From the NCBI GenBank assembly GCA_041725955.1, contig JBGRQE010000008.1, positions 6,627-70,626 of the forward strand: DNA of 64,000 nt, written 5' to 3'. The stretch is from Bacteroidales bacterium (GTDB taxonomy: Bacteria; Bacteroidota; Bacteroidia; Bacteroidales; JBGRPZ01). Shown in pieces: positions 2,023 through 57,025 of the stretch (position 1 is its first letter; each line of letters begins with the position of its first letter). Made by a program: the position numbers and the translations under genes. The notes beneath the pieces are model-generated. The model was not told where the DNA came from. It was given only the letters and a program-made list of their open reading frames with translations, and ran no database searches.

Positions 2023-4986
2023 CTACTGAATACAAATTTCATCAGCAAAAATCCATGCAGGTTTACCGCGTCCAGAATGCCAACTAGGACATGAATCAAT
2101 AGGTTTTGCTGTTACACGTACATATCTTGCACGAATCTTTTTCTTAGATGAAGAAAAATCTTTGATAATACCTTCTTCTTTCAAAGACACATCAGATTTC
2201 AGGGAGGCATATTTGCGCCACTTTTTTCCATTATCTGAAACTTCATAAATAACCTCTTTAGGCATCCAAATCCAAGCACCTGTAGCTTGCAAGAAACCAG
2301 TTGAAATGGAATTGATATACTTTCTTTTACCCATATCTATCTCCACAACCATATCTGTATCCCAATAACCTTGCCAATCTCCTGTAGTAAAATTATTATT
2401 ACCTTTTATCCCATCAATCAAAGCCTCATTTCCTCCTGCTGTATATTGTTTTCCATAAGGATTAATAATATTAATCTCCCAATTTGCTGGCATGGCATAA
2501 AAAGTTGCTTGAGCACATTTTGACAACATTCCATTCTTCATAGCAATAGCTTTAATGGTTGTTGTTTTTTTGACAACAATTGGCTTTTTTACAGAAAACT
2601 TTTGTGATTTCTCATTTGGCGTTGTACCATCTAGAGTATAATAAACTATAGCCTCTAAATCATTATGAGTTAATTTCACATCCAATTTATTCTTGAATGA
2701 TCTAGAAACAGCATCAATATTAGGAATACTAATAATAGGATACTCGTCAATAGAAGTTACAGGATAATCTCCATCTTTAGATCCCCATTTTTTATTTGGC
2801 TCTGAACCCATTTCAAATTCTAAAACACCTCCTTTTGGAATTTCTAAAACAGAAATATAGGTTTTATTGTAAGGTTCTCCATTTAAGTATGCCTTTTGGA
2901 TATAACAATTCTCTCGACTTATATTTTTGCACCTTAATTCAAATTCATTGCCATTATCCAGAGTCAACACTACTTTATCAAACAAAGGAGAACCAATAGC
3001 TAAAACCGTATCTCCTGGAGTCACAGAATATAATCCCATAGAACTAAACACATACCATGCAGACATTTGCCCACAATCTTCATTTCCACTGTATCCATCT
3101 ACATTACAAGAATACATTTCATTACAAATCTGGTGTACCAATTTCTGTGTTTTCCATGGCTTTCCTATATAATCATACAAATATGCCATATGATGTGAAG
3201 GTTCATTTCCATGTGCATACTGTCCAATAAGACCACTAATATCAGGTTGATGACGACCACTCAAAACTGTTTTAGCTCCGAACATTGCATCCAATTTTTT
3301 TTCGAAACCATCTTTTCCTCCATATAGCTCTATTAACCCAGAAATATCTTGGGGAGCAAAAAAAGTATACTGCCATGAATTGGCCTCTGTGAGCATAAAA
3401 GTAACTTCATTAGGATCAAATGGTTTTACAAATCCTCCATTACGTTTTCCTCTCATAAAACCAGTCTTCTTATCGAAGATATTTTTATAGTTTTGAGCTC
3501 TTTCCATAAAATACTTATAGTCGGCATTCTTACCCAATTTCTTCGCAAATTGCGCAATACACCAATCGTCATAAGCATATTCTAAAGTTTTTGATACTGA
3601 AGCACCTGATTTATCACCAGGCACATAGCCAAATTCGTCTAGATATTCAATGCCAAGTTCTTTCTTTTTAGCAGAGTGCTTCATTGCCTCATAAGCCTTT
3701 TCTAAATCAAAGCCTCTAATTCCCTTTACATAAGCATCATATATAACAGGAACTGAATGATAACCAATCATACATCCTGTTTCATTTCCTGCCAATTCCC
3801 ATACTGGTAATTTATCACCCAATGAATAAATATTCAACATGGTATTTATCATATCCTGAGTTGCTTGAGGTTCAAGATAACTCATCAATGGATGTTGAGC
3901 TCTAAAAGTATCCCATAATGAAAATACAGTATATTGATTTCTATCCTTATCTTGATGAACATTACCATCATGTCCGTAAAAACGACCATCAAAATCATTG
4001 AATATATTTGGACTTAAATACATATGATATAAAGCAGTATAAAAAACTGTTTTCAGACTATCATTTTCACTTGACACCTGTATTTTTGATAACCTTTTGT
4101 TCCATTCGTTTTTAGCTTTAATACGAATTTCTTCAAAATTCCAATTCGGATTTTCTTGCTTTAAGTTTTTATAAGCCCCATCAATACTAACTGCCGAAAT
4201 ACCAACCTTAACTAAAATTCTTTCTTGATCATATGTATTGAAAGTAAAACTCGCTTTTAAATTTTTGCCTCTAGCTTCTTTTTCCTTTTTTAGTTTTTGT
4301 CCATCAGAATAAATTGAAGATGATTCAAAAGGTCTAGAAAAAACAGCATAAAAATAAACAGGATGATCTTTTGCCCATGCACCTGTTCGACGCATACCTG
4401 CAATCTCAGAATCATTTACAATAATCAACTCAGAGTCGTGAATATCTTCTGTACGAATAGCTTCTTTTAGATCTAATATTATTCGAGATTCTTTCGACTC
4501 AGGAAAAGTATAAGCATGAAGACCTGTTCGTAATGTAGTTGTCAATTCGGCCTTAACGTTATAATCAGTGAGCTTAACACTATAGTAACCAGGTTCAGCA
4601 ATTTCACTCTCTTTGTCAAATAAAGATCTATAACCCGTCTTCGTATTCTCTTTTTCGCCAGGATTGATTTGAACATTTCCTACTAATGGCATAAATCTAA
4701 TATCACCATAGTCTCCACAACCTGTACCACTTAAATGGGTGTGACTAAATCCAAGAATACTATTATCTGAACAATGATAACCCGAACAACCATCCCAATC
4801 ATCGATACGAGTATCTGGACTTAACTGTACCATACCAAACGGAAGACTCGCACCAGGAAAAGTATGACCATGCCCTCCTGTCCCTATCTTAGGATTAACA
4901 TAATCTGCTGGAGTCTTTCTCTCCTTAGAACAGGAAAGTGAGAGCACCAAGCAAGAAAAAAATAAAAACTTGTAAAACTTCTGCAT
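2023..4986 (-). CDS. GH92 alpha-mannosidase lipoprotein with C-terminal Fn3-associated and F5/8-type domains
   Basis: GH92 motifs YVNPKIGTGGHGHTFPGASLPFGMVQLSPDT, FSHTHLSGTG, SKTLEYAYDDW, QYAHGNEPSHH, GNEDCGQMSAWYVFSSMG; YYTLDGTTP; lipobox LSLSC. Start moved to ATG 4986. Confidence 0.95.
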   Translation of the reverse strand: MQKFYKFLFFSCLVLSLSCSKERKTPADYVNPKIGTGGHGHTFPGASLPFGMVQLSPDTRIDDWDGCSGYHCSDNSILGFSHTHLSGTGCGDYGDIRFMPLVGNVQINPGEKENTKTGYRSLFDKESEIAEPGYYSVKLTDYNVKAELTTTLRTGLHAYTFPESKESRIILDLKEAIRTEDIHDSELIIVNDSEIAGMRRTGAWAKDHPVYFYAVFSRPFESSSIYSDGQKLKKEKEARGKNLKASFTFNTYDQERILVKVGISAVSIDGAYKNLKQENPNWNFEEIRIKAKNEWNKRLSKIQVSSENDSLKTVFYTALYHMYLSPNIFNDFDGRFYGHDGNVHQDKDRNQYTVFSLWDTFRAQHPLMSYLEPQATQDMINTMLNIYSLGDKLPVWELAGNETGCMIGYHSVPVIYDAYVKGIRGFDLEKAYEAMKHSAKKKELGIEYLDEFGYVPGDKSGASVSKTLEYAYDDWCIAQFAKKLGKNADYKYFMERAQNYKNIFDKKTGFMRGKRNGGFVKPFDPNEVTFMLTEANSWQYTFFAPQDISGLIELYGGKDGFEKKLDAMFGAKTVLSGRHQPDISGLIGQYAHGNEPSHHMAYLYDYIGKPWKTQKLVHQICNEMYSCNVDGYSGNEDCGQMSAWYVFSSMGLYSVTPGDTVLAIGSPLFDKVVLTLDNGNEFELRCKNISRENCYIQKAYLNGEPYNKTYISVLEIPKGGVLEFEMGSEPNKKWGSKDGDYPVTSIDEYPIISIPNIDAVSRSFKNKLDVKLTHNDLEAIVYYTLDGTTPNEKSQKFSVKKPIVVKKTTTIKAIAMKNGMLSKCAQATFYAMPANWEINIINPYGKQYTAGGNEALIDGIKGNNNFTTGDWQGYWDTDMVVEIDMGKRKYINSISTGFLQATGAWIWMPKEVIYEVSDNGKKWRKYASLKSDVSLKEEGIIKDFSSSKKKIRARYVRVTAKPIDSCPSWHSGRGKPAWIFADEICIQ

Positions 4987-5070
4987 ATTTACTTTTTTTC
5001 GCAATTAAAACTGATAAACTAAATGGAAAGAAACTTTCAATATATAACAAACCCTTTGATTAAAAACTGC

Positions 5071-14347: not shown

Positions 14348-16987
14348 TTACTTTATGCCCTTAAGCATACTTTTTATTTCATTTAATTTCATCAAAGCCT
14401 CAACTGGTGTAAGGGTATCTATATTTGTATTCAATATATCTTCCTTAATTTGATGAAGTAATGGATCATCCAATTGTATAAAACTCAATTGATAATCTTG
14501 CTCATTAGAAGATATACTTTCCTTTGCACCATTTTTAGTAGAAGTGCCACTATCTTGATTTTGCAAATGAGAATTCTCCAAAAACTGTAATATATCATTT
14601 GCTCTGGAAATTACTTCTGAAGGCATCCCAGCCATGCGAGCAACATGAATACCAAAACTATGTTCACTTCCTCCTGGCCTAAGTTTTCGTAAAAAAATGA
14701 CTTTATTACCTATTTCCTTAACAGAAACATGATAGTTCTTTATACGACTAAACTGTTTTGTCATATCATTCAACTCATGATAATGAGTTGCAAAAAGCAC
14801 TTTTGGCCTGCATTTCTTTAACTTATGCAGATATTCTGTAATCGACCATGCAATAGAAATACCATCATAGGTACTTGTTCCACGACCAATTTCATCCAAT
14901 AATATTAGACTTCGGTCACTTACATTATTTAAAATACTCGCAGTTTCATTCATCTCTACCATAAAAGTAGATTCTCCAGAAGAAATATTATCTGATGCAC
15001 CAACGCGAGTAAAAACCTTATCAACAAGTCCGATCGTAGCACTCTTTGCAGGAACATAGCAACCCATCTGAGCCATAAGGACAATTAAAGCTGTTTGCCT
15101 TAAAAGAGCGGATTTTCCAGACATATTTGGTCCTGTAAGCATAATAATCTGCTGCTCATCTTTATCCAAAAAAACATCATTAGCTATATACTCTTCACAG
15201 ACAGGCAATTGTTTTTCAATAACAGGATGTCTTCCTTCTTTAATATCTATTTCACATCCATCATGGATAACAGGTTTACTATAATTACTTTCCGATGATA
15301 ATTTGGCGAAAGAGTTCAAAACATCTAATCGAGCCAACAAACTCCCATTCATCAGAATAGGTTGAACATAATCTGAAACTGCAATTACTAAATTTGAAAA
15401 CAATTGTTGTTCAAGAGAAAGAATTTTTTCTTCTGCACCCAATATTTTTTGTTCATACTCTTTTAGTTCTTCGGTAATATATCTTTCCGAATTTGTTAAA
15501 GTTTGTTTTCTATGCCACTCTTTAGGAACTTTATCTTTGTGAGTATTGGTGACTTCCAGATAATAACCAAAAACATTATTGTAGCCTATTTTCAAACTTG
15601 ATATGCCAGTACGTTCATTCTCCCTCTTTTGAATTTGGCATAGATAATCTTTGCCATTAAAAGCAAGTCTTCGCAGTTCATCCAATTCCTTATTTACACC
15701 ATCAGCAATAACATTTCCTTTATTGACAAGTGCAGGTGGATCATCATTTAATTCTAAACGAATTTTTTCACGAATAGAATCACAAATATTTAGTTGTTCG
15801 CAGATTTTTTTTAAACTTACATTCCCATATTTCAATCCTAATAGCTTAACCTTTTCAACGATATCTAGGCCTCTAAGCAATTGCAGTAATTCTCTGGGAT
15901 TTATTCTTGAAACAGATACCTTTGCTACTAATCTTTCTAAATCACCACACGATTTAAGGTTCGTTTCAATATTTTCGGATAAAGAAGAATCATCAATTAA
16001 ATTATCAACAATATTCAAACGTTCATTAATTCTATAATTCTCCTTAAGAGGCATTGCTATCCATCTTTTTAACAGTCGCCCTCCCATAGGAGAAGATGTT
16101 CTATCCATAATCTCCAAAAGGGAAGTTGCTCCATCATTTGCAGATCCTAACAACTCAAGATTTCTAATTGTAAAACGATCTAACCAAACATAACGCTCTT
16201 CTTCAATACGTCGAATCTTAGAGATGTGAGAGACTTTATCATGATGTGTTTCTGCTAAATAATGCAAAGCAGCTCCTGCTGCAATTATGGCATATTGTAG
16301 ATTATTTATACCAAATCCCTTCAATGAATTGGTATTAAAATGTCTCAATAAAGTTTCATTAGCAAAATCCTGTGTAAAAACCCAATCTTCCAAACAAGCT
16401 ATATAAAGTTTATCACCAAAACGCGAAACAAAATCATGCTTCTGATTGCGCTGAACAACAATTTCGCTAGGAGATAAACTTTGCAACAATTTCTCTATAT
16501 ATTCCATTGAACCTTCAGCAACAAAGAACTCTCCTGTTGAAATATCCAGAAAAGAAATTCCTGCATTTTTCCTATCATAATGTAATGCAGCAAGAAAGTT
16601 ATTTGCTTTCTGTTCTAGCACTTTATCATTAAAAGAAACTCCAGGAGTTACCAATTCTGTCACACCGCGCTTTACAATCTTTTTAGTAAGCTTTGGATCT
16701 TCCAACTGATCACAAATAGCTACTCTATGACCAGCTCGAACTAGCTTAGGCAAATAAGTATCTAAAGAATGGTGAGGAAATCCTGCCAATTCAACATAAG
16801 CAGCAGATCCATTTGCTCGCTTAGTTAATACAATTCCTAAAACCTTACTGGTTTTTATTGCATCCTCGCCAAAAGTTTCATAAAAATCTCCTACACGAAA
16901 CAAGAGCAATGCATCTGGATACTTTGCTTTTATCGTGTTGTATTGCTTCATCAGAGGCGTCTCTGCCACTTTACTTGTTTTTGCCAA
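14348..16987 (-). CDS. mutS: DNA mismatch repair protein MutS
   Basis: [17 protein letters not shown], Walker [48 protein letters not shown]. Confidence 0.98.
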
Positions 16988-24015: not shown

Positions 24016-25782
24016 ATGAAAAAGTTTTTTTTACTTGTATTGATTTCCTTCATTTCTTTAGAGAATAACATTTTTTCTCAGAATAAACTACTGGGTCTTG
24101 ATAGTTTAAGAATTACTAAATTCAAAAACAATGCTTTTGAACCTCATAAAACATGCTCATATAAAAGAGATTATAAAGGCAGATTAACAGAAAGTATTGA
24201 ACAATTTTTTCATCCAGGAGTTGGCTACGAAAGAATGATCCTTCAATATACTTATGATAATGATGATCGAATTATTGAGGAAAATAAAATCGTGTATTTC
24301 CAATACCCTTACTATTACAATAATGAAAATACAAAATACAAATATTCTGAAAGCGGAGTATTGCTCGAAGAAATACGAATTTTGTCAGGTATCAAAAATG
24401 ACATCTCCGAAGAAAAAGAAAAGCACACCCATTTGTATAATCAATTTGGTAAGTTATTATTTTACGAATCCAGAATTAAAAACATTACCAAAAATAAAGA
24501 AGAATATGAATATTTTCAAGATACAATTTTGTTAAGATCATGGCTTTACAACACTGATTTCGAAACAAAAAAATTAAAACTGTACCAAAAAACAGAAACC
24601 CTTATTGAGAACAATCTTGCTGTAAAAAGAATTTGGAAAAGCAACCCCTACCCAAAAACAGAAGAATTAAAGCTTTCAAAGGAAAAAGAAATGACTTATA
24701 AGAACGATCAATTAAGCTACTGCCTTACCAAAAGTTACGATCCCTCTGACAATTCAAAAATCATACGTAAAACAGAAACCAATTATGAAAATGGTAATAA
24801 AGTAAAAGAGATTTCTTACGAACTAAAAAAAAATATACTTTCTCCGAAACAAAAAACAATTAATACATTTTATAAAAACAGCTCTTTACTGAAAGAGTGT
24901 TCTTTATATTACTATTCAAATAATGAATGGGAAAAATATTTCTACCGTGGAATTGAATACAACAAAAAAGGATATGAAACAAAAATAACAGAAACTACTA
25001 TAGATAATGAAAAATCAACTACCTCAATTTATTGTAACTATTTTGATGAGAAAGACAGGTTAATTCGAAAAGACAAAAAGTATTTAAACTCTGATTCATT
25101 TTCTTTTTTTAAAGAATGGAAATATACCTCATTTGACTTATTGAAAGAAGTTATAGAAAGATATCCTGGAAAAAAACAAAAAGAAGATGTATTGTATACT
25201 TATGATCCAGAACATCGATTACTAAAATATGAAAAAACAGTTATTGATGATCAAGGCCTCTCTTCAAAAGAAGAATTCATCTATACCTTTGACAATGAAG
25301 GCAACATAGTGAAAGTATTTAAAGATTATATTGGTTTTAGTAATTTATTGTATGACAATTTTGAGGTTTATCAAGATATAAAAACCACTGATCTACCAAA
25401 AAACACTTTCCCAAAAGTAGGTTTTGCAGACTCAAAAATGTTAGTAAAAGGCTTTATAAAAACTGAACCTTCTTCCCAAAAAAAGTTAAAATATCAATAT
25501 TTTTATTCCAGACCTACCTCGGTTTCAGAAATCAGCAACACCTTTAAAGGAAGAATATATCCCAATCCAAGCCATGGTGTTTTATATATTGAATTGAAAG
25601 AACCTTCATCAAATGCGATTGTTGAAATTTTTGATATGAAAGGACAAAGAATATATTTTCAACACTTCAATTCTAAAGATGTAATTGATACTTCAAAATT
25701 CGAAATAGGTACATATATATGTCTCGTTTATGGTAATGGAAGTACGTATTCCAGGAAAATATTAATATCAGGTTCAAAATAG
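24016..25782 (+). CDS. T9SS-secreted protein with YD-like beta-strand repeats
   Basis: Signal peptide; YTYDNDDRII, YTYDPEHRLL and YTFDNEGNIV repeats; C-terminal IYPNPSHG...IFDMKGQ...GTYI...RKILI type A CTD. Confidence 0.85.
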   Translation: MKKFFLLVLISFISLENNIFSQNKLLGLDSLRITKFKNNAFEPHKTCSYKRDYKGRLTESIEQFFHPGVGYERMILQYTYDNDDRIIEENKIVYFQYPYYYNNENTKYKYSESGVLLEEIRILSGIKNDISEEKEKHTHLYNQFGKLLFYESRIKNITKNKEEYEYFQDTILLRSWLYNTDFETKKLKLYQKTETLIENNLAVKRIWKSNPYPKTEELKLSKEKEMTYKNDQLSYCLTKSYDPSDNSKIIRKTETNYENGNKVKEISYELKKNILSPKQKTINTFYKNSSLLKECSLYYYSNNEWEKYFYRGIEYNKKGYETKITETTIDNEKSTTSIYCNYFDEKDRLIRKDKKYLNSDSFSFFKEWKYTSFDLLKEVIERYPGKKQKEDVLYTYDPEHRLLKYEKTVIDDQGLSSKEEFIYTFDNEGNIVKVFKDYIGFSNLLYDNFEVYQDIKTTDLPKNTFPKVGFADSKMLVKGFIKTEPSSQKKLKYQYFYSRPTSVSEISNTFKGRIYPNPSHGVLYIELKEPSSNAIVEIFDMKGQRIYFQHFNSKDVIDTSKFEIGTYICLVYGNGSTYSRKILISGSK

Positions 25783-40647: not shown

Positions 40648-43600
40648 TTATATTATTTCTTCCAGAGTTTTTAATGCCTTACTAACTCCTTTTATATTCT
40701 TAAAGCTTAAGCTTAATTTTCCATCTTTTTCTCGCATTGTACATTTCTTGGAATTCATTTGTACGTATTGCAAAAGATCGGTAAACTCCTTGCTCTCATA
40801 AAAAGTATTTTTCTGATCGTTTATAAACCAAACTACCATTTTTTCGAACTTGAGCACAATCTTTTCTACTCCCATTTTCTTAGCTTTCCATCTTAATCTT
40901 ATGGTTTGAATAAGCTCACTGGTTTCTTTGGGTATAGGACCAAATCGATCTTCAAGACTTTTGGTAAATTCCTGAAGCTTATCTTCTTCTTGAATATGAT
41001 CAAGCTCTTTATATAAATTCAATCGTTCGGCGATATTATCTAAATAAAAATCAGGAATCATTAAAGCCAAATCTGTTTCTATCTGACATTCGTACACAAA
41101 AGCCTTTTTCTCTTTTTTCTCTTCTGCAAAGGTATCTTTAAACTCATCTTCTTTCAGCTCCTGAATGGCTTCATCCAAGATTTTATGATACATTTCAAAC
41201 CCGATATCAGAAATAAATCCGCTTTGCTCACCTCCAAGAATATCACCAGCTCCACGAATATCTAAATCTCTCATGGCCACATTGAATCCTCCACCTAATT
41301 CACTAAATTCCTCTATAGCTTTTAATCGCTTTCTTGCATCCTGAGTTAAACTTATCATTGGAGGAGAAAGAAGATAACAGAATGCTTTTTTATTTGAACG
41401 TCCTACACGACCACGCATTTGATGCAATTCACTCAATCCAAAATGTTGAGCCTCATTAATTATAATTGTATTTGCATTAGAAATATCCAAGCCCGACTCA
41501 ATAATCTTTGTAGCAAGAAGCACATCGTACTCTCCTTCAATAAAGCCCAACATAACTTTTTCAAGCTTAGTTCCATCAAGTTTACCATGCGCAATTCCTA
41601 CACGAACACCAGGTACAAACTTCTTTATCATAGCTTCAATATCTAGAATATTGCCAACTCGATTGTGTACAAAGAAAACCTGACCTCCTCTAGAAACCTC
41701 ATATGAAATTGCATCTCTTATAATTTCAGGACTAAACGACCTTAATTGAGTTTCTACTGGATATCTATTGGGTGGAGGAGTATTGATAATACTCAAATCT
41801 CTGGCTCCCATAAGCGAGAACTGCAAAGTTCGTGGAATTGGAGTAGCTGTTAATGTTAAGGTATCTACATTTACTTTTATTGATTTTAATTTTTCTTTAA
41901 CCGCAACACCAAACTTCTGCTCTTCATCAATTACCAATAGCCCCAAATCATTAAACTTAATATCTTTCCCTACAAGCCTGTGAGTACCTATAATAATATC
42001 AAGTTTTCCTTCTTCTAGTTTCTTTAAGGTTTCTTTTTGCTTTTTGGCAGATTTAAAGCGGTTTATATAGTCAATATCTACAGGAAATTCTATCAAACGC
42101 TCACGGAAAGTTTTATAGTGCTGCAAAGCAAGTATGGTTGTAGGAACAAGAATAGCAACTTGTTTTCCATCAGTTACAGCTTTAAAAGCAGCTCGAATGG
42201 CAATTTCAGTTTTTCCAAACCCTACATCACCACAAACCAAACGATCCATAGGAAATGCTTGTTCCATATCCTTTTTAGTATCCACTGTAGCCTTATACTG
42301 GTCAGGAGTATCTTCATATATAAAAGAGGCTTCTAATTCTGTTTGCAAATATGAATCGTTGCTATACTGAAATCCTTTAGCTGCTTTACGTTTGGCATAC
42401 AAATGAATCAATTCTCGAGCAATATCTTTAACCTTGGATTTTGTCTTTTGCTTTAACTTATTCCAAGCCTGAGAACCCAATTTATTCAGTTTCGGTTCAG
42501 TTCCTTCTTTACCTGTATATTTTGAAATGCGATGTAAAGAATGAATAGAGACATAAAGAATATCGCTGTTTTTATAGGTCAAGCGAATTACCTCTTGCAG
42601 TTTACCATTATTCTCAATCCTACTTAAGCCTTCAAACCTACCTACACCATGATCAATATGAGTTACATAATCGCCAGGCTGTAAATCGTATAATTCCTTT
42701 AAACTAAGCTTTTCTTTACTCTTAAACCTATTCCTTAAATGAAACCGCTGATATCGTTCAAAAATCTGATGATCGGTAAAGCATAAGAGTTTTAGGTCGT
42801 CATCTACAAATCCTTCATGCAAAGGACAATTTAAACCTTCAAGAAATTCCCCATCTAAAGAAGACGTAATTCCCATATCAAGAGCAATTTGTTTTACTCT
42901 TTCAATCTGATTTAAATTATCGGAAGAAAGTAAAATCTGGAAATCCTTTTCCTTATATGAAGAAAGTTCTTTAAATAGAAGTTCAAAATTCTTATTAAAG
43001 CTTGGCTGAATACTAGTATGGAAAGAAATATGCTCAGCATTGTTAAATTGAGACTGAGTACCAAATTCTATAATTGGATATGAAGTTAATTCTTTTGCCC
43101 ATTCACTTCCAGAACAAAAAAGCTCTTGAGGTTTCAAATGGTCTAGAGCAGAATCTATATTTTGAAATATCTTTTCTGCCTTATCAAATTCTTTCTGAAT
43201 AATGTCGGCACAAAAAGCAATATCTTCAATCCAAACATGCACATTTGAAGGTAAATATTCAAGTATATTTTGCCTTCGTTCTTGAATAACTCTCTGATGT
43301 AAATTGGGAACAATATGAATACTTGACAATTTCTCTATAGACAACTGCTTTTCTGGATCAAAGGTTCGAATACTCTCTACCTCATCACCAAAGAATTCAA
43401 TCCGAAAAGGAAGATCGTTACTAAAACTAAAGACATCAATAATTCCTCCACGAATTGCAAACTGACCCGGTTCAACCACGAAATCAACTCTTTCAAAACT
43501 ATATTCCAAGAGTACATCCGAAATAAAATCTAAATTGACAGATTCATTCACCTTAAGTTTAAGGGTATTCTTATTCAAAAAAGATTTGGTAATTACTTTC

Positions 43601-44010
43601 TCCGACAAAGCTTCAGGATGAGTAACTACAACTGTCATTTTTGTTGAATTTTGAACCCTACTCAATACTTCTGTTCTCAACAAAACATTAGCATTATCTA
43701 TCTTTTCAATTTCGTATGGACGTTGATAAGATGTAGGATAGAAAAGAATTTTCTTTTTAGAATAATCAGCATCTCTTTCCTGAAATATATTCTCTAGATC
43801 ATTACAAAAGTATGCAGCCTGCTCCTTTTCAGGAATCACAACCAAATGAATACCTTTTTGCTTGACCAAGCTAGCAGATATGACAGCTGCTCTAGCAGAT
43901 CCTTTTAAGTTCTCTGCGAAAATCCGTTTTGATTTTTTATCCAAAAGTTCAGATAATTCTTGAACCTTTGGATGCTTCTTATATATGTCTAAAAAAAATT
44001 CAGTTTTCAA
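40648..44010 (-). CDS. mfd: Transcription-repair coupling factor
   Basis: RGGIIDVF, GDYVTHIDHGVG (RID), DRLVCGDVGFGKTE, IDEEQKFGV, LTATPIPRTL, QMRGRVGRS, RDLDIRGAGDILG; TTG start; TAAATTTG element at 44040-44033. Confidence 0.98.
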   Translation of the reverse strand: MKTEFFLDIYKKHPKVQELSELLDKKSKRIFAENLKGSARAAVISASLVKQKGIHLVVIPEKEQAAYFCNDLENIFQERDADYSKKKILFYPTSYQRPYEIEKIDNANVLLRTEVLSRVQNSTKMTVVVTHPEALSEKVITKSFLNKNTLKLKVNESVNLDFISDVLLEYSFERVDFVVEPGQFAIRGGIIDVFSFSNDLPFRIEFFGDEVESIRTFDPEKQLSIEKLSSIHIVPNLHQRVIQERRQNILEYLPSNVHVWIEDIAFCADIIQKEFDKAEKIFQNIDSALDHLKPQELFCSGSEWAKELTSYPIIEFGTQSQFNNAEHISFHTSIQPSFNKNFELLFKELSSYKEKDFQILLSSDNLNQIERVKQIALDMGITSSLDGEFLEGLNCPLHEGFVDDDLKLLCFTDHQIFERYQRFHLRNRFKSKEKLSLKELYDLQPGDYVTHIDHGVGRFEGLSRIENNGKLQEVIRLTYKNSDILYVSIHSLHRISKYTGKEGTEPKLNKLGSQAWNKLKQKTKSKVKDIARELIHLYAKRKAAKGFQYSNDSYLQTELEASFIYEDTPDQYKATVDTKKDMEQAFPMDRLVCGDVGFGKTEIAIRAAFKAVTDGKQVAILVPTTILALQHYKTFRERLIEFPVDIDYINRFKSAKKQKETLKKLEEGKLDIIIGTHRLVGKDIKFNDLGLLVIDEEQKFGVAVKEKLKSIKVNVDTLTLTATPIPRTLQFSLMGARDLSIINTPPPNRYPVETQLRSFSPEIIRDAISYEVSRGGQVFFVHNRVGNILDIEAMIKKFVPGVRVGIAHGKLDGTKLEKVMLGFIEGEYDVLLATKIIESGLDISNANTIIINEAQHFGLSELHQMRGRVGRSNKKAFCYLLSPPMISLTQDARKRLKAIEEFSELGGGFNVAMRDLDIRGAGDILGGEQSGFISDIGFEMYHKILDEAIQELKEDEFKDTFAEEKKEKKAFVYECQIETDLALMIPDFYLDNIAERLNLYKELDHIQEEDKLQEFTKSLEDRFGPIPKETSELIQTIRLRWKAKKMGVEKIVLKFEKMVVWFINDQKNTFYESKEFTDLLQYVQMNSKKCTMREKDGKLSLSFKNIKGVSKALKTLEEII

Positions 44011-51074: not shown

Positions 51075-52622
51075 TTAGAATGGAGGAATTCCGTGTTTCT
51101 TGAATGGAACTTCCTCTGATTTCTCTACAGAAATATCCAATGCATGAATAATCATTCGACGAGTTTCTTTTGGCTCGATAACTGCATCTACATAACCATA
51201 AGCCGCTGCCACATAAGGATTGGCAAATTTATTTTTGTACTCCTCGATTTTCTCTTGACGAATTGACTCAGGATCTTCTGCATTCATAATTTCTTTACGG
51301 AAAATGATGTTTGCAGCACCTTCAGGTCCCATTACTGCAATTTCAGCAGTTGGCCAAGCAAAAACAAAATCAGCACGTAAGTGATGTGAACACATTGCAA
51401 TGTAACCACCACCATATGCTTTACGAAGAATCAAAGTGATTTTTGGAACAGTAGCTTCACTATAAGCATACAACACTTTAGCACCATGGCGAATTACACC
51501 CGCATGCTCTTGATCTACCCCTGGAAGATATCCTGGAAGATCAACAAAAGTTACTAAAGGAATATTAAAGGCATCGCAATAGCGGATAAAACGTGCAGCT
51601 TTATTCGAACTATCAACATCCAATACTCCAGCTAGATAACGAGGTTGATTGGCTACAAATCCGACAGTATCACCATTCATTCTACCAAAACCAATAGCAA
51701 TATTGGAAGCAAATAATTCTTGTATTTCAAAGAATTCAGAGTCATCACAAACTGCACGAATAACATCACGAACGTCATAAGGCTGCGAAGGATCTGATGG
51801 TAATATACTGTCTACTTTATATTCTTTAGTTTTCGGTGTTTTCTTTGTAAATTTTTCAGCTTTATGAGTATTATTCCAAGGAATGAAACCCATAAGTTTT
51901 TTTATCTGATCAAAACACTCTTGTTCACTTTCTGCATAAAAATGAGCATTACCAGTGGTCTCTGCATGAACACGAGCACCACCTAGCTCTTCCATAGAGA
52001 TTTCTTCTCCAAGAACAGTTTTAATTACCTCTGGACCTGTAATAAACATTTTTGAAATTTTGTCTACTACAAACACAAAATCTGTCAAAGCAGGCGAATA
52101 AACTGCTCCACCAGCACAAGGCCCAAGGATAACACTAATCTGAGGGATTACTCCTGAAGCTTTAGTGTTTCTATAAAAGATCTCTCCATATCCAGCAAGA
52201 GAATTAACTCCTTCTTGAATACGAGCACCACCAGAATCATTAATTCCAATCAAAGGAACTTTAAGCTTCATGGCATGGTCCATAATTTTACAGATCTTTT
52301 TTGCATGCATCCAACCGAGACTACCACCTGCAACAGTAAAGTCTTGTGCATAAATACAAATTGGATGACCTTCGATCATACCTGTACCTGTGACAACACC
52401 ATCACCAGGGAGGTATTTTTTGTCCATATTGAAGTCTTTTGCTGCGTGCTCAACGAAAAGGTCGTACTCATGAAAGCTTTTGGGATCCAAAAGGGCAATA
52501 ATTCTCTCACGAGCGGTGAGTTTACCAATAGCCTTTTGTTTTTCAATGGCTTTCGTTCCCCCTCCGCTGAGGGCATTGCGCATTCTTTTTTTTAGGTCGG
52601 ATGTTTTTTGCTTAATACCCAT
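51075..52622 (-). CDS. Acyl-CoA carboxylase beta subunit (carboxyltransferase; PccB/MmdA family)
   Basis: GKLTARERI, DFTVAGGSLG, DSGGARIQEG, GPCAGGAVYSPA, DLPGYLPG, RKAYGG, KKHGIPPF; TAATTTTG element at 52735-52728. Confidence 0.95.
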   Translation of the reverse strand: MGIKQKTSDLKKRMRNALSGGGTKAIEKQKAIGKLTARERIIALLDPKSFHEYDLFVEHAAKDFNMDKKYLPGDGVVTGTGMIEGHPICIYAQDFTVAGGSLGWMHAKKICKIMDHAMKLKVPLIGINDSGGARIQEGVNSLAGYGEIFYRNTKASGVIPQISVILGPCAGGAVYSPALTDFVFVVDKISKMFITGPEVIKTVLGEEISMEELGGARVHAETTGNAHFYAESEQECFDQIKKLMGFIPWNNTHKAEKFTKKTPKTKEYKVDSILPSDPSQPYDVRDVIRAVCDDSEFFEIQELFASNIAIGFGRMNGDTVGFVANQPRYLAGVLDVDSSNKAARFIRYCDAFNIPLVTFVDLPGYLPGVDQEHAGVIRHGAKVLYAYSEATVPKITLILRKAYGGGYIAMCSHHLRADFVFAWPTAEIAVMGPEGAANIIFRKEIMNAEDPESIRQEKIEEYKNKFANPYVAAAYGYVDAVIEPKETRRMIIHALDISVEKSEEVPFKKHGIPPF

Positions 52623-52982: not shown

Positions 52983-53411
52983 TCATGCTATTTGCATATT
53001 TTTTAATACATTTTTTATTGCATGTTTGGACTTAAAACCAATTAATTTTTGAACAACCTCCCCGTTTTGGAAAATCAAAATTGAAGGAATATTATCGATA
53101 TCATATTGATGGAGTAAATTCTTACTTTTATCAACATCAAACTTACAAACTTTAATTCTATCCTTCTCTTTTTCTGCTATTTCATTAAGAATTACACCTT
53201 GAAATTTACAAGGCTTACACCATTTTGCCCAAAATTCTACCAAAACAGTTCCACTACTCGTTTCTTCAGAGAAATTACTATCATCCAAAATGGTAATATT
53301 TGGATTCGTTTCAACATCATACTTTTTAAATGTTTGTGCTCTTTTGGCAAGGTAAATAATGACCAAAATAAAAAGGACAACTATTACATAGGTTATTATT
53401 GTACCAATCAT
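52983..53411 (-). CDS. Thioredoxin-family protein with an N-terminal membrane anchor
   Basis: FWAKWCKPCK active site, cis-Pro NIPS; TM segment IITYVIVVLFILVIIYLA. Start moved to ATG 53411. Confidence 0.88.
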   Translation of the reverse strand: MIGTIITYVIVVLFILVIIYLAKRAQTFKKYDVETNPNITILDDSNFSEETSSGTVLVEFWAKWCKPCKFQGVILNEIAEKEKDRIKVCKFDVDKSKNLLHQYDIDNIPSILIFQNGEVVQKLIGFKSKHAIKNVLKNMQIA

Positions 53412-53828
53412 AATACTTAGTTTAGGGTTTATTGTTATGATTAATATCAAGCCACAACAGATCTTTGCGTAGAAAAGATAATTTAGATAATACTTTAGTT
53501 TATTGTGGTAAATTGAGTTGGCTCAATACACTAAAGATAAAAAAAAAATCAAAACAAACAAAATTTCAAATCCAACCTAAAGCTAGTAACATATTTATAC
53601 TTTAACTAAAAGTAATCAAAAGATTATAACAAAGAATACATTTTTGAACAAAATAATGCATTAACAATAACAGTTTGTATTACTCTAACATTATTTTTTC
53701 CCTAAGAATACAAAACTCCTTTTATAGTGCCTTATAGGTAATAAAAGATCACACCAGAAAAATTCTGATTTATTAAAAAAAAGAATTTTATTTCTTAGAC
53801 GAGAAAACTAAAATCTAAACTAAACATT

Positions 53829-54026
53829 ATGAAAAGTAAGAATTTAACAGAAAAACTATCTTTAAAAAAAGAAAATGTATCTTCATTAGGCAAACATACG
53901 CAAGGTAAAGGTACAGGTACTGAATGCTGGACAGCTGCAAGTATTGGGGGACTTGGCGTAACATGTTTATTCACAATGATCCACACATGTACATGTGGAG
54001 CTTCTGGCTACAGTATGTGTTGCTAA
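53829..54026 (+). CDS. Putative class I lanthipeptide precursor (LanA-like), copy 1
   Basis: 65 aa; leader LSLKKENVSSL matches LxLxKx5L; predicted core after QGKG has 6 Cys and 10 Ser/Thr; paralogue at 56653; own terminator. Confidence 0.8.
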   Translation: MKSKNLTEKLSLKKENVSSLGKHTQGKGTGTECWTAASIGGLGVTCLFTMIHTCTCGASGYSMCC

Positions 54027-54040
54027 GAAATACGAATAAG

Positions 54041-54076
54041 ATAAAAAAGCGAGCTTATGCAAGCTCGCTTTTTTAT
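54041..54076. terminator. Bidirectional intrinsic terminator
   Basis: ATAAAAAAGCGAGCTT-ATGC-AAGCTCGCTTTTTTAT. Confidence 0.88.
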
Positions 54077-54095
54077 TTTCTATATATTCTATTCT

Positions 54096-55394
54096 TTATC
54101 TCAAGAAAAATTTAAGAATAAATAAAATTGCAATAAAATACATAATAGGAGATAGCTGCTTTGACTTTCCTGTCAAAATCTTTAAGAAGACATAAGACAA
54201 CATTCCAAATACAATACCATTAGCAATGCTATAAGTTAATGGCATCAATATAATTGTAAAAAACGCTGGAATAGCTTCTGTGAAATCCTTAAAATCGACC
54301 TTGGTAATTGGTGTCATCATAAACAAACCAACCATAATCAATGCAGATGCTGTAGCAGCACTAGGAATCATAACAAAAACAGGAGCAAAGAATAAAGCAA
54401 TAAAAAACATGCCTGCAGCAGAAAGAGCTGTCATTCCAGTTCTTCCTCCTTCGGCAACTCCTGAAGCAGATTCAACATAGGTGGTAACTGTACTTGTTCC
54501 CATTATGGCACCAAAGGTAGTTCCAATTGCATCTGCAAACAGAGCATGTTTTACCCTTGGAATTTTCCCATCCTTATCTAATAAATTAGCCTTTGAAGAA
54601 ACTCCAACTAAAGTACCTACTGTATCAAACATATCTACAAATAGAAAAGTAAAAAGTACAATAAGCATTTTAAAACTGAAGATTTCAGACCATTCAAATT
54701 GAAAGAAGATAGGTTTAAGAGATGGAGGAGCGCTGATAAGACTACCATCTGCAGGGAGATGTGTAACATTTAAAGGGATCCCAACAATGGTTGCTGTAAT
54801 AATACCGATAAGTAATGCTCCCTTTACATTTAATGCCAATAATACTCCTGTAAGAATCAATCCGATTAATGCAACGATTGCTGCTGGTTGAGTAACATCA
54901 CCCAGCGACACTAAGGTAGCTGGATTATCAACAACAATTCCTGCCTTGGAAAATCCAATAAAAGCAATAAACAAACCAATCCCAACCGAAACAGCATGTT
55001 TAATATTTGTTGGAATACAGTTTACAATTAACTCTCGAATATTAAACGCCGTTAACACTATAAAGATTAATCCTTCAAGAAAAACAGCAGTAAGTGCAAA
55101 TTGCCAACTATGTCCTAATCCAAGAACTACAGTATAGGCAAAGAAAGCATTTAGCCCCATGCCAGGTGCAAGTGCAAATGGTAACTTAGCCACAAATGCC
55201 ATTACTAAAGTTCCAACGATGGCCGACAATACAGTAGCGGTAAATACAGCTCCAGCATCCATTCCTGTTTTACTAAGAATATCAGGGTTGACAGCCAAAA
55301 TATAGGCCATTGTCATAAAGGTGGTTATCCCTGCTATAATCTCTGTCTTAACAGTTGTTTTATGCTTACTTAAGCCGAAGAATTTATTTAGCAT
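54096..55394 (-). CDS. NCS2/AzgA-family purine permease
   Basis: TEIIAGITTFMTMAYILAVNP, ALAPGMGLNAFF, DMFDTVGTL, TTYVESASGVAEGGRTG, MPLTYSIANG. Confidence 0.95.
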   Translation of the reverse strand: MLNKFFGLSKHKTTVKTEIIAGITTFMTMAYILAVNPDILSKTGMDAGAVFTATVLSAIVGTLVMAFVAKLPFALAPGMGLNAFFAYTVVLGLGHSWQFALTAVFLEGLIFIVLTAFNIRELIVNCIPTNIKHAVSVGIGLFIAFIGFSKAGIVVDNPATLVSLGDVTQPAAIVALIGLILTGVLLALNVKGALLIGIITATIVGIPLNVTHLPADGSLISAPPSLKPIFFQFEWSEIFSFKMLIVLFTFLFVDMFDTVGTLVGVSSKANLLDKDGKIPRVKHALFADAIGTTFGAIMGTSTVTTYVESASGVAEGGRTGMTALSAAGMFFIALFFAPVFVMIPSAATASALIMVGLFMMTPITKVDFKDFTEAIPAFFTIILMPLTYSIANGIVFGMLSYVFLKILTGKSKQLSPIMYFIAILFILKFFLR

Positions 55395-55412
55395 GATTCT
55401 TTGGGTTTATAA

Positions 55413-56126
55413 TTATAAATTCCACTTAAAAGCTACTGTTGGCATGGCCTTAAACTGATCGTCGAAAATAAAGAAATTGCGACTTATTTCAACCTCTCCT
55501 CCAATTGCCAATGATTTATTTAAATTAAACCACAATTGTGGTTCTGTAAGAAACGTAAATTGTTTTCCATCATGTTTAGCCTCTTGAGAAAATAACACCT
55601 TATCCTGAGTCCAGATATCTAAGAATCCAGAAAAGGTTATTATTCCATGATAGAAAGTCTTTGACCAAGATGTGGTAAACTGAAAGTCAGCCCCCTCAAC
55701 AGCATCTTGTTGCTTACGATAACTAATAGATATTGGTAGAACGAAATTTCCTATTCGAACAGGATACGTGAAACCAAATAAATATGTATTTGATATCTCA
55801 ATAATATTATTCCTTTTCACCATTATTCCCCCATTATACTCTGTATGGAGTTGTAATTTTTTAACAAAAGGAATATTCCAATTTCTACTTATTTCTGTAT
55901 ATGCAGTTCCTATATTTCCATTTGATCTACTAAAATCTAAATCTACAAATAGAAATGTATTTCCTAACTTATCAACCTTAAAAGTTTCAAACGTTGTAGT
56001 AAAATAATTCCGATCAACAGTTCGATCTCCATCTTTGGCTTTACCAAAATCATAATGCAATTGCAAATTCTGCGAAAATGCATTAAGACCTATGAACAAA
56101 AATAAAAGAGTAAAAAATTGTTTCAT
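55413..56126 (-). CDS. DUF5020-like outer-membrane protein (Tsx-like nucleoside channel candidate)
   Basis: Signal peptide then QNLQLHYDFG, TTTFETFKVDKLGNTFLFVD, EYNGG, SGFLDIW, TEPQLWFN, GGEVEIS, PTVAFKW; co-oriented with the NCS2 permease. Confidence 0.75.
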   Translation of the reverse strand: MKQFFTLLFLFIGLNAFSQNLQLHYDFGKAKDGDRTVDRNYFTTTFETFKVDKLGNTFLFVDLDFSRSNGNIGTAYTEISRNWNIPFVKKLQLHTEYNGGIMVKRNNIIEISNTYLFGFTYPVRIGNFVLPISISYRKQQDAVEGADFQFTTSWSKTFYHGIITFSGFLDIWTQDKVLFSQEAKHDGKQFTFLTEPQLWFNLNKSLAIGGEVEISRNFFIFDDQFKAMPTVAFKWNL

Positions 56127-56602
56127 GGCTTATTAATCAAATAACTGATTTTGTTTTGCTTATAAAAATTGTTGTTGTTTGTGGCTGCAAAACAAAATCA
56201 AAAGAAGGAGAATTACAAATTCTATAAACAAACTCTCTTTTTATAAAATGTTATTATTAACATTACTTTATATTGATTAACATATCTTTAATTGATACTA
56301 AAGAAAGTTATTAACACTAAAAAAAAATATTTTTTTGTTTTTCATACCTAAAAAGGTGATATTCTAGCTGCTAGAAAAAAATTATAAGCAACCAAAGTAA
56401 GTAAAGACAAATTTATTCTATAAAGAAGTCAATATAAAAATAGACGCTTTCTATAGCAACGTATTTCACTATAATAATAACCGAAACAAAAGACAAAATA
56501 ATATCTTCGTTTTAACAGTTTGATATACAGCTGACAAAATAAATCATTTTATTTTTTTAACTGCCTACTGCACTCTATGACGTTTGTGTGTATTAGGCAA
56601 AG

Positions 56603-56610
56603 TATTTTTG
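56603..56610 (+). promoter_or_regulatory. Candidate -7 element for peptide copy 2
   Basis: TATTTTTG about 43 bp upstream of ATG 56653; TTTG at 56583-56586 (spacing shorter than canonical). Confidence 0.4.
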
Positions 56611-56652
56611 TTGAGTTCAAACTCAACAAAATTAACCCTAAAACTAAAAACT

Positions 56653-56850
56653 ATGAAAACTAAGGAAATAAACGGAAAGCTAAACTTAAAAAAAGAAAAC
56701 GTTTCTACATTAGGTAATAAAGTTCAAGGTAAAGGTACGGGAAGCAATTGCTGGACTGCAGCAAGTATAGGAGGACTTGGCGTGACATGCCTATTTACAC
56801 TTATTAAAACTTGTACTTGCGATACCTCAAGTTATAATTACTGCGATTAA
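56653..56850 (+). CDS. Putative class I lanthipeptide precursor (LanA-like), copy 2
   Basis: Start moved to ATG 56653, giving 65 aa collinear with copy 1; leader LNLKKENVSTL (LxLxKx5L); predicted core has 5 Cys and 11 Ser/Thr. Confidence 0.8.
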   Translation: MKTKEINGKLNLKKENVSTLGNKVQGKGTGSNCWTAASIGGLGVTCLFTLIKTCTCDTSSYNYCD

Positions 56851-56860
56851 AAAATATAAA

Positions 56861-56906
56861 TTAACAAAAAAAGCTACTTCAGATTTGAAGTAGCTTTTTT
56901 TGTTAA
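56861..56906 (+). terminator. Intrinsic terminator after peptide copy 2
   Basis: TTAACAAAAAAAGCTACTTCA-GATT-TGAAGTAGCTTTTTTTGTTAA. Confidence 0.88.
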
Positions 56907-56953
56907 CATCTTAAAAAAAAGACCATCCAATTAAGGATAGTCTTTATATCTAG

Positions 56954-57025
<72 letters not shown>

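What the first reader, a model, noticed from the sequence alone, without database searches (positions are those of the whole stretch)
53829..56850. Two paralogous lanthipeptide-like precursor genes under purifying selection
Seen: two collinear 65-aa ORFs, MKSKNLTEKLSLKKENVSSLGKHTQGKG-TGTECWTAASIGGLGVTCLFTMIHTCTCGASGYSMCC and MKTKEINGKLNLKKENVSTLGNKVQGKG-TGSNCWTAASIGGLGVTCLFTLIKTCTCDTSSYNYCD. The block CWTAASIGGLGVTCLFT is identical in protein but differs at 8 of 17 codons, all synonymously (aca/act, gct/gca, att/ata, ggg/gga, gta/gtg, tgt/tgc, tta/cta, ttc/ttt), which is strong evidence that both are real, conserved genes. Each has its own terminator. Established: LxLxKx5L is the leader motif of Bacteroidota class I lanthipeptide precursors, and Cys plus Ser/Thr-rich cores are the substrate for (methyl)lanthionine rings. 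Inference: an uncharacterised polycyclic RiPP family with a conserved N-terminal ring system and a variable tail (GASGYSMCC vs DTSSYNYCD). I do not recognise the core as a described product, and the cleavage site after QGKG is a guess.
Basis: partly seen in the sequence, partly recalled or inferred. Interest (0 to 1): 0.85.

Follow-up and report, generated by a model that had tools for sequence, protein, structure and literature searches.

The report
Stand-alone lanthipeptide precursor gene pair
Two small, clearly selected genes most likely encode precursors of ring-forming (lanthipeptide) peptides, and they sit far from the only enzymes in the genome that could modify them.

Summary
Two 65-aa ORFs (53829-54026 and 56653-56850, + strand) are 45/65 identical. 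The 17-residue block CWTAASIGGLGVTCLFT differs at 8 codons, all synonymously. NG86 gives dN 0.23 and dS 1.72, and the chance of 8 random changes all being silent is about 5e-6. Each gene has its own terminator.

They belong to a seven-member paralog family spread over three contigs. The leader has the LxLxKx5L motif of Bacteroidota class I lanthipeptides (Walker 2020), but scores below the cut-off of NCBIfam lant_leader_L1a (17.6 and 16.6 against 22 bits).

The genome has a single LanC / split-LanB operon, on another contig, with no precursor beside it. In a 301-genome sample of the order, 11 of 15 genomes with profile hits carry LanB, against 30 of 301 overall. In 8 genomes the hit lies 2-4 kb from LanB.

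The core has no relatives outside this genome's own paralogs apart from one distant 53-aa protein among 1.84 billion representatives.

The best reading is dispersed, stand-alone class I lanthipeptide precursors. Rings, cleavage site and expression are untested. It is a new member of a known kind, of moderate interest.

The parts
53829..54026 (+). pepA, a 65-aa precursor-like gene. Leader is about residues 1-28/30 (L10-x-L12-x-K14-x5-L20). The Cys/Ser/Thr-rich core has 6 Cys.
54038..54079 (+). Hairpin plus T-run terminator after pepA. It is bidirectional and shared with the convergent permease gene.
56653..56850 (+). pepB, a 65-aa paralog of pepA (45/65 identical). It has the same leader register and 5 Cys in the core.
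56860..56907 (+). Perfect 21-nt-arm hairpin plus T-run terminator after pepB.
   Evidence: I4
56603..56610 (+). TATTTTTG, 50 nt upstream of the pepB ATG. It matches the Bacteroides-type -7 promoter consensus TAnnTTTG (consensus recalled, not from a call). pepA has no exact match in its 200 upstream nt.
   Evidence: inference only
54096..55394 (-). Xanthine/uracil-family permease lying between the two peptide genes on the opposite strand. Judged unrelated.
55413..56126 (-). DUF5020 protein between the two peptide genes on the opposite strand. Judged unrelated.

Best explanation
pepA and pepB are monocistronic precursor genes (LanA) of a class I lanthipeptide family in a Bacteroidota genome.

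Proposed mechanism (inferred):
1. The N-terminal approximately 28-30 residues are a leader recognised by the genome's single split dehydratase (LanB glutamylation protein of 746 aa plus elimination protein of 305 aa) and by the cyclase LanC (415 aa), encoded on another contig (C97).
2. LanB dehydrates Ser/Thr of the core through glutamyl-tRNA(Glu).
3. LanC adds the Cys thiols to give (methyl)lanthionine rings.
4. An unidentified protease removes the leader.

The seven paralogs share invariant C33, S38, G41, C46 and C54, and S/T at 29, 49 and 55. This suggests a common three-ring scaffold of S/T29->C33, S38->C46 and S/T49->C54. The pepA/pepB pair would add one or two rings in its extra C-terminal tail (C56, C64, and C65 in pepA only).

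Shown: gene reality, selection, paralogy, leader likeness, presence and apparent intactness of LanB/LanC, and association of this leader type with LanB in related genomes.

Inferred: that LanBC acts on these peptides, the ring pattern, the cleavage site, export and bioactivity.
For: 1. Purifying selection on the peptide frame: the block has dN 0 and dS 1.29, the whole gene 0.23 and 1.72. dN is below dS in all 16 of 21 paralog pairs with a finite dS; the other 5 are saturated.
2. LxLxKx5L is present in both genes. The motif is described for Bacteroidetes class I LanAs in Walker 2020 (passage).
3. NCBIfam lant_leader_L1a gives E 0.003 and 0.0065, and lant_leader_L1b gives E 0.02 for pepA. No rSAM-target or other leader family appears at E<=10. 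Paralog C6b reaches 21.7 bits, or 22.2 with neighbours, which is at the cut-off.
4. The genome has exactly one match each to Lant_dehydr_N (494 bits), Lant_dehydr_C (237 bits) and LANC_like (132 bits), in one operon.
5. LanC aligns to NisC with LAHG, AWCYGxPG and CHG conserved. That these are the catalytic His and Zn ligands is recalled.
6. No precursor lies on the 10-kb LanBC contig, so the enzymes need substrates encoded elsewhere.
7. In 301 genomes of the order, the A1 profile hits 15 and LanB is in 30. Eleven of the 15 are LanB-positive. The other 4 hits contain stop codons or lie inside a 1407-aa frame. In 8 of the 10 other LanB-positive genomes with hits, a hit lies 2.0-4.1 kb from LanB on the same contig.
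8. The pepA leader aligns without gaps in its first 22 residues to 9 of 11 such LanB-linked precursors, with 9-12 of 22 identical; 2 rows align over 18 and 21 positions.
9. Five paralogs have 3 Cys, an odd number that cannot all pair as disulfides. Each invariant Cys has a conserved Ser/Thr N-terminal to it.
10. The LanBC contig matches the genome in GC (33.1% against 33.1%) and tetranucleotide usage (r 0.987, 18th of 23 contigs of similar size) and carries a T9SS PorV-family gene.
11. Complex prediction of LanB_N with pepA gave weak support: score 0.37, best of 3 controls 0.02. The mark was reached by 58 of 80 solved complexes and 2 of 110 mismatched pairs, but at 0.60 or under by only 7 of those 80 and by both mismatches. 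The runs agree in at least 24% of contacts and the partner pLDDT is at least 36. A solved LanB-leader complex exists (NisB-NisA, recalled), so this pass may reflect likeness.
Against: - Leader HMM scores (17.6 and 16.6 bits) are below the curated cut-off of 22.
- LanBC is not linked to the genes, and nothing RiPP-related lies beside any of the seven paralogs.
- The leader does not end in GG, and no C39 peptidase was found in the 92.6%-complete assembly. No leader protease or exporter is identified.
- The core is a roughly 20-residue hydrophobic stretch that could also be a membrane segment.
- No RNA, peptide or mass evidence exists.
- The co-occurrence count involves related genomes, which are not independent. 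Four hits were judged spurious only after inspection.
- The complex prediction gives only weak support.
Confidence: 0.66

Rival explanations
1. The genes encode unmodified or disulfide-bonded small secreted peptides (class II bacteriocin or bacteroidetocin-like, or a signalling peptide). They would reuse the common Bacteroidota leader for export and not be touched by LanBC.
For: There is no linkage to LanBC. pepA has an even number of Cys (6). The leader type resembles double-glycine export leaders (Walker passage).
Against: No GG site is present, and no C39 peptidase or PCAT was found in the genome. Five paralogs have 3 Cys and pepB has 5, so at least one Cys could not be paired. The Ser/Thr positions are conserved together with the Cys. 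This leader type co-occurs with LanB in the order sample.
Confidence: 0.15
2. The genes encode small tail-anchored membrane proteins. The Lys-rich N-terminus would be cytoplasmic and the hydrophobic C33-C54 stretch would span the membrane. There would be no leader cleavage and no modification.
For: Residues 33-54 are largely hydrophobic in all seven paralogs, with small-residue spacing (S38, G41) compatible with helix packing. The genes are stand-alone with housekeeping neighbours.
Against: The N-terminal 22 residues align in register with precursors that sit next to LanB in 8 other genomes. The invariant residues are Cys, Ser and Gly rather than the hydrophobic ones. The family has no relatives of this kind among 1.84 billion representatives.
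Confidence: 0.08
3. The genes encode substrates of a different RiPP enzyme, for instance the genome's single radical SAM/SPASM peptide-maturase-like protein, giving ranthipeptide or sactipeptide-type thioethers.
For: The core is Cys-rich. One rSAM/SPASM gene lies at C10:62463-63914, with its best hit to the PapB ranthipeptide maturase at 178 bits, below the 340 cut-off.
Against: That gene sits beside an HprK-related kinase A-like gene and a FemAB-family gene, which looks like a separate cassette. The peptides give no hit to rSAM-target leader models at E<=10. The leader type tracks LanB in the order sample.
Confidence: 0.06

Closest known systems
Bacteroidota class I lanthipeptide precursors with the LxLxKx5L leader (Walker et al. 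2020, PMC7268733; NCBIfam NF038153 lant_leader_L1a). Characterised examples are pinensins and Ped15.1/15.2, known here only from passages.
   Same: The leader register M-K-x6-K-L-x-L-x-K-E-x-(V/I)-x-x-L is shared. The core is Cys- and Ser/Thr-rich. The dehydratase is split into glutamylation and elimination proteins, as stated for pinensin. The LanC is closest to LanM-type cyclase domains, as Walker notes for Bacteroidetes LanCs.
   Different: The leader does not end in GG, and no C39 protease or transporter was found. HMM scores are below the cut-off. The genes are not in a LanBC cluster. The core sequence has no relatives outside this genome beyond one distant 53-aa protein.
Prochlorosins (class II, cyanobacteria): many precursor genes encoded far from the single LanM (as stated in Walker 2020, passage).
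   Same: One modifying enzyme set serves several dispersed precursor genes with a conserved leader and diverging cores.
   Different: The class I machinery is LanB plus LanC, not LanM. The leader family differs (not Nif11). The phylum differs. Only seven family members are seen here, plus about eight other leader-like ORFs at E<=1.
   Same: 9-12 of 22 leader residues are identical to pepA. Leader length is the same. LanC is followed by LanB, which is either split or fused.
   Different: Those precursors lie 2-4 kb from LanB, end their leader in GG, and have unrelated cores.

Membership tests
Class I lanthipeptide precursor, Bacteroidota leader type (NF038153 lant_leader_L1a) | LxLxKx5L motif in the leader | tested here: met
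   L10-x-L12-x-K14-x5-L20 is present in pepA and pepB. The motif definition comes from the Walker 2020 passage.
Class I lanthipeptide precursor, Bacteroidota leader type (NF038153 lant_leader_L1a) | HMM score at or above the curated cut-off (22 bits) | tested here: not met
   Scores are 17.6 bits (pepA) and 16.6 bits (pepB), with E 0.003 and 0.0065. Paralog C6b scores 21.7, or 22.2 with neighbours.
Class I lanthipeptide precursor, Bacteroidota leader type (NF038153 lant_leader_L1a) | Core with Cys and at least as many Ser/Thr | tested here: met
   From T29 onward, pepA has 6 Cys and 10 Ser/Thr, and pepB has 5 Cys and 11 Ser/Thr (sequence).
Class I lanthipeptide system | LanB dehydratase (glutamylation and elimination domains) and LanC cyclase encoded in the genome | tested here: met
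   C97 carries Lant_dehydr_N at 494 bits, Lant_dehydr_C at 237 bits and LANC_like at 132 bits. NisC-type motifs are conserved.
Class I lanthipeptide system | Precursor encoded in the same cluster as LanB/LanC | tested here: not met
   LanBC is on contig C97 and the peptides are on C8. The genome has a single LanB match and a single LanC match, neither in the window. No precursor-like ORF lies on C97.
Class I lanthipeptide system | Dehydrated residues and (methyl)lanthionine rings in the product | not testable with these tools
   This needs mass spectrometry of native or co-expressed peptide.
Double-glycine leader peptides (class II bacteriocins and GG-type LanAs) | [quoted passage not shown] | tested here: not met
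   The leaders have G26-K-G28-T-G30 and no GG. Peptidase_C39 has 0 matches in the 92.6%-complete genome, while the control rings in 7 of 14 genomes.
rSAM-modified Bacteroidota peptides (ranthipeptide or GG_sam_targ type) | Leader or peptide HMM hit, and an adjacent radical SAM maturase | tested here: not met
   No such family appears at E<=10. The single SPASM gene is on contig C10 in a different cassette.

The most novel reading that the evidence does not exclude
In this genus, orphan LanC / split-LanB operons service a genome-wide set of stand-alone precursor genes, each with its own promoter and terminator. This genome has seven of this family, and up to 15 leader-like ORFs at E<=1. That would be a class I, Bacteroidota counterpart of the prochlorosin one-enzyme-many-substrates system, producing a previously unseen three-ring hydrophobic scaffold. 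The same architecture is seen in the congener G001, which has two LanBC operons with no precursor within about 20 kb and stand-alone precursor pairs elsewhere.
Probability: 0.4. Interest if true: 0.6.

Novelty: new member of a known kind. Interest (0 to 1): 0.45.

Why it matters
If LanBC does process these peptides, the genome gives a compact natural test case for how one class I dehydratase/cyclase pair handles several diverged cores encoded away from the enzymes. Cluster-based genome mining would miss them: Walker et al. limited their search to seven genes either side of LanC. The core scaffold has no database relatives, so the product would be a new lanthipeptide structure from a poorly sampled, uncultured Bacteroidota lineage. 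If LanBC does not process them, the finding is still a well-supported family of small, selected, Cys-rich peptides of unknown role.

Tried and rejected
- Pfam gave no family for either peptide at E<=10.
- The NCBIfam hit of pepB to Shiga toxin Stx2o subunit B (E 0.074, 13 bits against a cut-off of 204.5) is noise. I did not follow it.
- The search for homologous proteins (5.8 billion proteins, word-indexed) returned only the two window peptides.
- The search for related loci with alignment A1 failed because no stretch was conserved enough.
- The search for related loci with LanB_N found one named relative, Arcicella gelida, at 38% identity, whose cluster has a fused LanB followed by a C39-type transporter-like ORF. 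It did not name the window's organism.
- Promoters: the sigma-70 scan is at background, with 18 sites against 16.1 +/- 3.6 in shuffles. TAnnTTTG occurs upstream of only 1 of the 7 paralogs, so the promoter question is left open.
- Flank comparison: outside the coding regions the two loci share only short AT-rich matches, the best being 30 nt at 73% (53648-53677 against 56493-56522). There is no evidence of a recent segmental duplication.
- Synteny: the congener G001 keeps the tRNA-era-der block (74% nucleotide identity) but has a lipase-like gene instead of pepB upstream of the tRNA. The interval from pepA to pepB has no DNA match there.
- Expression: no RNA holder was listed. Three DNA runs of one study, labelled coral metagenome, hold low-depth fragments that are almost all identical (one single-base difference and one inserted base, neither in a peptide gene). 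They may be the sample the genome was assembled from. This says nothing on expression or on independent occurrence.
- The protein-atlas search gave a best feature score of 0.82. A second cluster at 0.79 has a Lant_leader_dom Pfam family on 63% of members. Both are under 0.9, so they are leads only.
- Bothwell et al. 2021 (PMC9845027) is not held.
- Caetano et al. 2020 was seen only as a citation. My recollection that it reports precursors away from LanBC in Pedobacter lusitanus is unverified and is not used as evidence.
- Supplements of Walker 2020, which hold the precursor family lists, could not be seen. They might contain related cores.
- Papers: PMC7268733, PMC10352776, PMC12328550, PMC9680876, PMC8358304 and PMC9993889 were read as passages found by term search only. 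All others were seen only in search listings.
- That the core is not in print rests on sequence searches and on paper searches that cannot search by sequence.
Full report
**Observation.** The window holds two 65-aa ORFs on the + strand: pepA at 53829-54026 and pepB at 56653-56850. The ORF listing begins the second at an upstream TTG (56584, 88 aa). The ATG at 56653 gives a product collinear with pepA and with five further paralogs.

The two genes share 45 of 65 residues and 139 of 198 nucleotides. NG86 estimates are dN 0.233 and dS 1.72 for the gene, and dN 0 and dS 1.29 for the block. Eight random substitutions in the block were all silent in 5e-6 of 200,000 simulations. So both are real genes under purifying selection in this frame.

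Each gene is followed by a strong hairpin and T-run, at 54038-54079 and 56860-56907. Each is also flanked upstream by a divergent gene: a thioredoxin at 52983-53450 for pepA and a DUF5020 gene at 55413-56126 for pepB. Both therefore look monocistronic.

The genes between them on the opposite strand are a xanthine/uracil-family permease and DUF5020. A tRNA-Met gene lies at 56953-57025. None of these is RiPP-related.

**A larger family.** A search of the window's own genome (G000, 3.8 Mb, 113 contigs, 92.6% complete) found seven paralogs: the pair here on contig C8, a tandem pair on C6 and a tandem trio on C52. In their alignment (A1) these residues are invariant: M1, K9, L12, K14, E15, S18, G30, C33, S38, G41, C46 and C54. 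Positions 29, 49 and 55 are Ser or Thr in 7 of 7. The five other paralogs stop soon after C54, and only pepA and pepB carry the extra Cys-containing tail.

dN is below dS in all 16 of 21 paralog pairs for which dS is finite. The other five are saturated. None of the other paralog loci has a RiPP enzyme next to it. Their neighbours are AraC-type regulators, DUF3108, DUF4221 and AsnA.

**What the leader resembles.** Both peptides carry L10-x-L12-x-K14-x5-L20. Walker et al. 2020 (PMC7268733, passage read) give LxLxKx5L as the leader motif of many Bacteroidetes class I LanAs. They add that many such leaders end in Gly-Gly, with a C39 protease in the cluster.

Against NCBIfam, the only models hit below E 0.05 are the class I lanthipeptide leader models. 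lant_leader_L1a gives 17.6 and 16.6 bits, and L1b gives 15.0 bits for pepA. All are below the curated cut-offs of 22 and 27. Pfam gives nothing. A genome-wide scan with L1a lists 15 leader-like ORFs at E<=1, including all seven paralogs. One of these (C6b) reaches the cut-off.

**The enzymes.** The genome has one match each to Lant_dehydr_N, Lant_dehydr_C and LANC_like. All three lie in one operon on the 10-kb contig C97: LanC (415 aa), then LanB glutamylation protein (746 aa), then LanB elimination protein (305 aa). A hybrid histidine kinase/response regulator precedes the operon. The elimination protein passes the thiopeptide-type model TIGR03891.

LanC aligns to NisC with LAHG, AWCYGxPG and CHG conserved. 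That these are the catalytic His and Zn ligands is recalled knowledge. No precursor-like ORF lies on C97. The contig ends 174 nt after the elimination gene, so something could follow.

C97 fits the genome in GC content and tetranucleotide usage. It also carries a PorV-family T9SS gene, and the window itself has a T9SS sorting-domain protein. Both contigs therefore look like the same Bacteroidota organism.

**Association test.** I searched a 301-genome sample of the same order with the seven-paralog profile and with the LanB family.
- LanB is present in 30 of 301 genomes.
- The profile hits 15 of 301 genomes at E<=0.01.
- Eleven of those 15 are LanB-positive.
- The other four hits contain stop codons or lie inside a 1407-aa frame. 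I judged them spurious after seeing them.
- Of the 10 LanB-positive genomes other than G000, 8 have a hit on the same contig, 2.0-4.1 kb from LanB.

These genomes are related, so the count is descriptive and not a test.

The first 22 residues of pepA align to 11 such LanB-linked precursors with 9-12 identities, over 22 positions for 9 of them and over 18 and 21 for the other 2. Outside G000 the matches cover mostly the leader, and the cores differ.

**The congener.** G001, of the same genus, has two LanC/LanB_N/LanB_C operons. One of its LanB_N proteins is 58% identical to that of G000. No leader-type ORF lies in the 20 kb fetched around either operon. Its profile hits are on other contigs. 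They include a stand-alone tandem pair with a similar hydrophobic two-Cys core.

G001 lacks pepB upstream of the conserved tRNA-era-der block. Enzymes and precursors being unlinked thus seems to be a trait of this genus.

**Novelty of the core.** The 5.8-billion-protein word-indexed search returned only the two window peptides. An exhaustive HMMER search of 1.84 billion representatives with the profile returned 10 hits at E<=0.001:
- this genome's own paralogs;
- one distant 53-aa relative (E 1e-6);
- two leader-type peptides with other cores;
- two repeat-rich long proteins that I regard as chance.

**Mechanism proposed.** The leader recruits the split LanB, which dehydrates Ser/Thr through glutamyl-tRNA(Glu). 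LanC then closes thioether rings. The conserved pattern suggests rings S/T29->C33, S38->C46 and S/T49->C54, with additional rings in the pepA/pepB tail. This ring pattern is inference from conservation only.

An odd Cys count in six of the seven paralogs (3 in the five short ones, 5 in pepB) argues against an all-disulfide product.

The cleavage site is open. But the GG of LanB-linked leaders aligns at positions 30-31, next to the invariant G30. No C39 peptidase was found, and no protease or exporter is assigned.

A complex prediction of LanB_N with pepA gave weak support. The score was 0.37 against a best control of 0.02. The tool states that this mark was reached by 58 of 80 solved complexes and 2 of 110 mismatches, but at 0.60 or under by only 7 of the 80 and by both mismatches. 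The runs agreed in at least 24% of contacts, and the partner pLDDT was at least 36. Because a LanB-leader complex has been solved (recalled), this may reflect likeness only.

**Rivals.**
- An unmodified or disulfide-bonded exported peptide (0.15).
- A small tail-anchored membrane protein (0.08).
- A substrate of another enzyme, such as the single rSAM/SPASM maturase-like gene on C10, which sits in what looks like a separate cassette (0.06).

**Comparison and verdict.** The genes work like, and most probably are, Bacteroidota class I lanthipeptide precursors. Several membership features are met: the leader motif, the Cys/Ser/Thr core, and LanB/LanC in the genome. Others are not: the HMM cut-off, clustering with LanBC, and a GG site with a C39 protease. 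The chemical hallmark is untestable here.

Dispersed precursors served by one synthetase are known for the class II prochlorosins (Walker passage). Whether they have been reported for class I Bacteroidota I could not verify, because Caetano 2020 and Bothwell 2021 were not readable.

I rate this a new member of a known kind, with a new core and an unusual unlinked layout. Interest is 0.45. Confidence in the lanthipeptide-precursor reading is 0.66.

Noticed in passing
G000 contig C46:26705-27695 (outside the window): Three tandem GG-type precursor-like ORFs (80-85 aa; leader MKK-KLNLSF-KET-SNLEM---KGG; Cys/Thr-rich cores) lie directly after a TolC-like / TetR-like / membrane-fusion-like / RND-like gene set, as judged from ORF sizes and N-termini and not checked against a family library. 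They sit at the very end of the contig. One passes the lant_leader_L1a cut-off at 25 bits.
   Followed up: partly
G000 contig C8:85731-85895 (about 15 kb beyond the window end) and G001:C48:26815-26895: This is another stand-alone precursor-like ORF with a ...DCIT-N-CSKESHCHC core. It is nearly the same in both species of the genus, unlike pepA and pepB, which are found only in G000.
   Followed up: no
G000 contig C10:62463-63914: This is the only radical SAM/SPASM peptide-maturase-like gene in the genome. Its best hit is the PapB ranthipeptide maturase, at 178 bits, below the cut-off. It is followed by an HprK-related kinase A-like gene and a FemAB-family gene. A 39-aa leader-like ORF lies 13 kb away at C10:49114-49233.
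   Followed up: partly
window 56953-57025 and flanks: Synteny with the congener G001 breaks exactly upstream of tRNA-Met. G001 has a lipase-like gene where G000 has pepB. The carboxyltransferase gene at 51075-52622 maps to a different G001 contig.
   Followed up: partly
window 53648-53677 and 56493-56522: A 30-nt element (ACAAAATAAT...TAACAGTTTG, 73% identical) lies about 130-180 nt upstream of both peptide genes at nearly the same spacing as the genes. It could be a shared regulatory site or AT-rich chance.
   Followed up: no
G000 contig C6:74799-76925: Two paralogous AraC-type (HTH_18) regulator genes lie 1-3 kb from the C6 precursor pair.
   Followed up: no
G000 contig C97:4811-6244: A hybrid histidine kinase/response regulator gene sits directly upstream of LanC on the same strand, in the position where other genomes of the order have the precursor. 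It is a possible regulator of the LanBC operon.
   Followed up: no
window 53700-56950: Three DNA runs of one study, labelled coral metagenome, hold low-depth fragments of this stretch that are almost all identical. They may be the source sample of the assembly, so they give no independent support.
   Followed up: partly
window 2023-5004, 14348-16987, 24016-25782, 40648-44010: Ordinary chromosomal genes surround the finding: a GH92 glycosidase, MutS, a protein with a T9SS type A sorting domain, and Mfd.
   Followed up: partly
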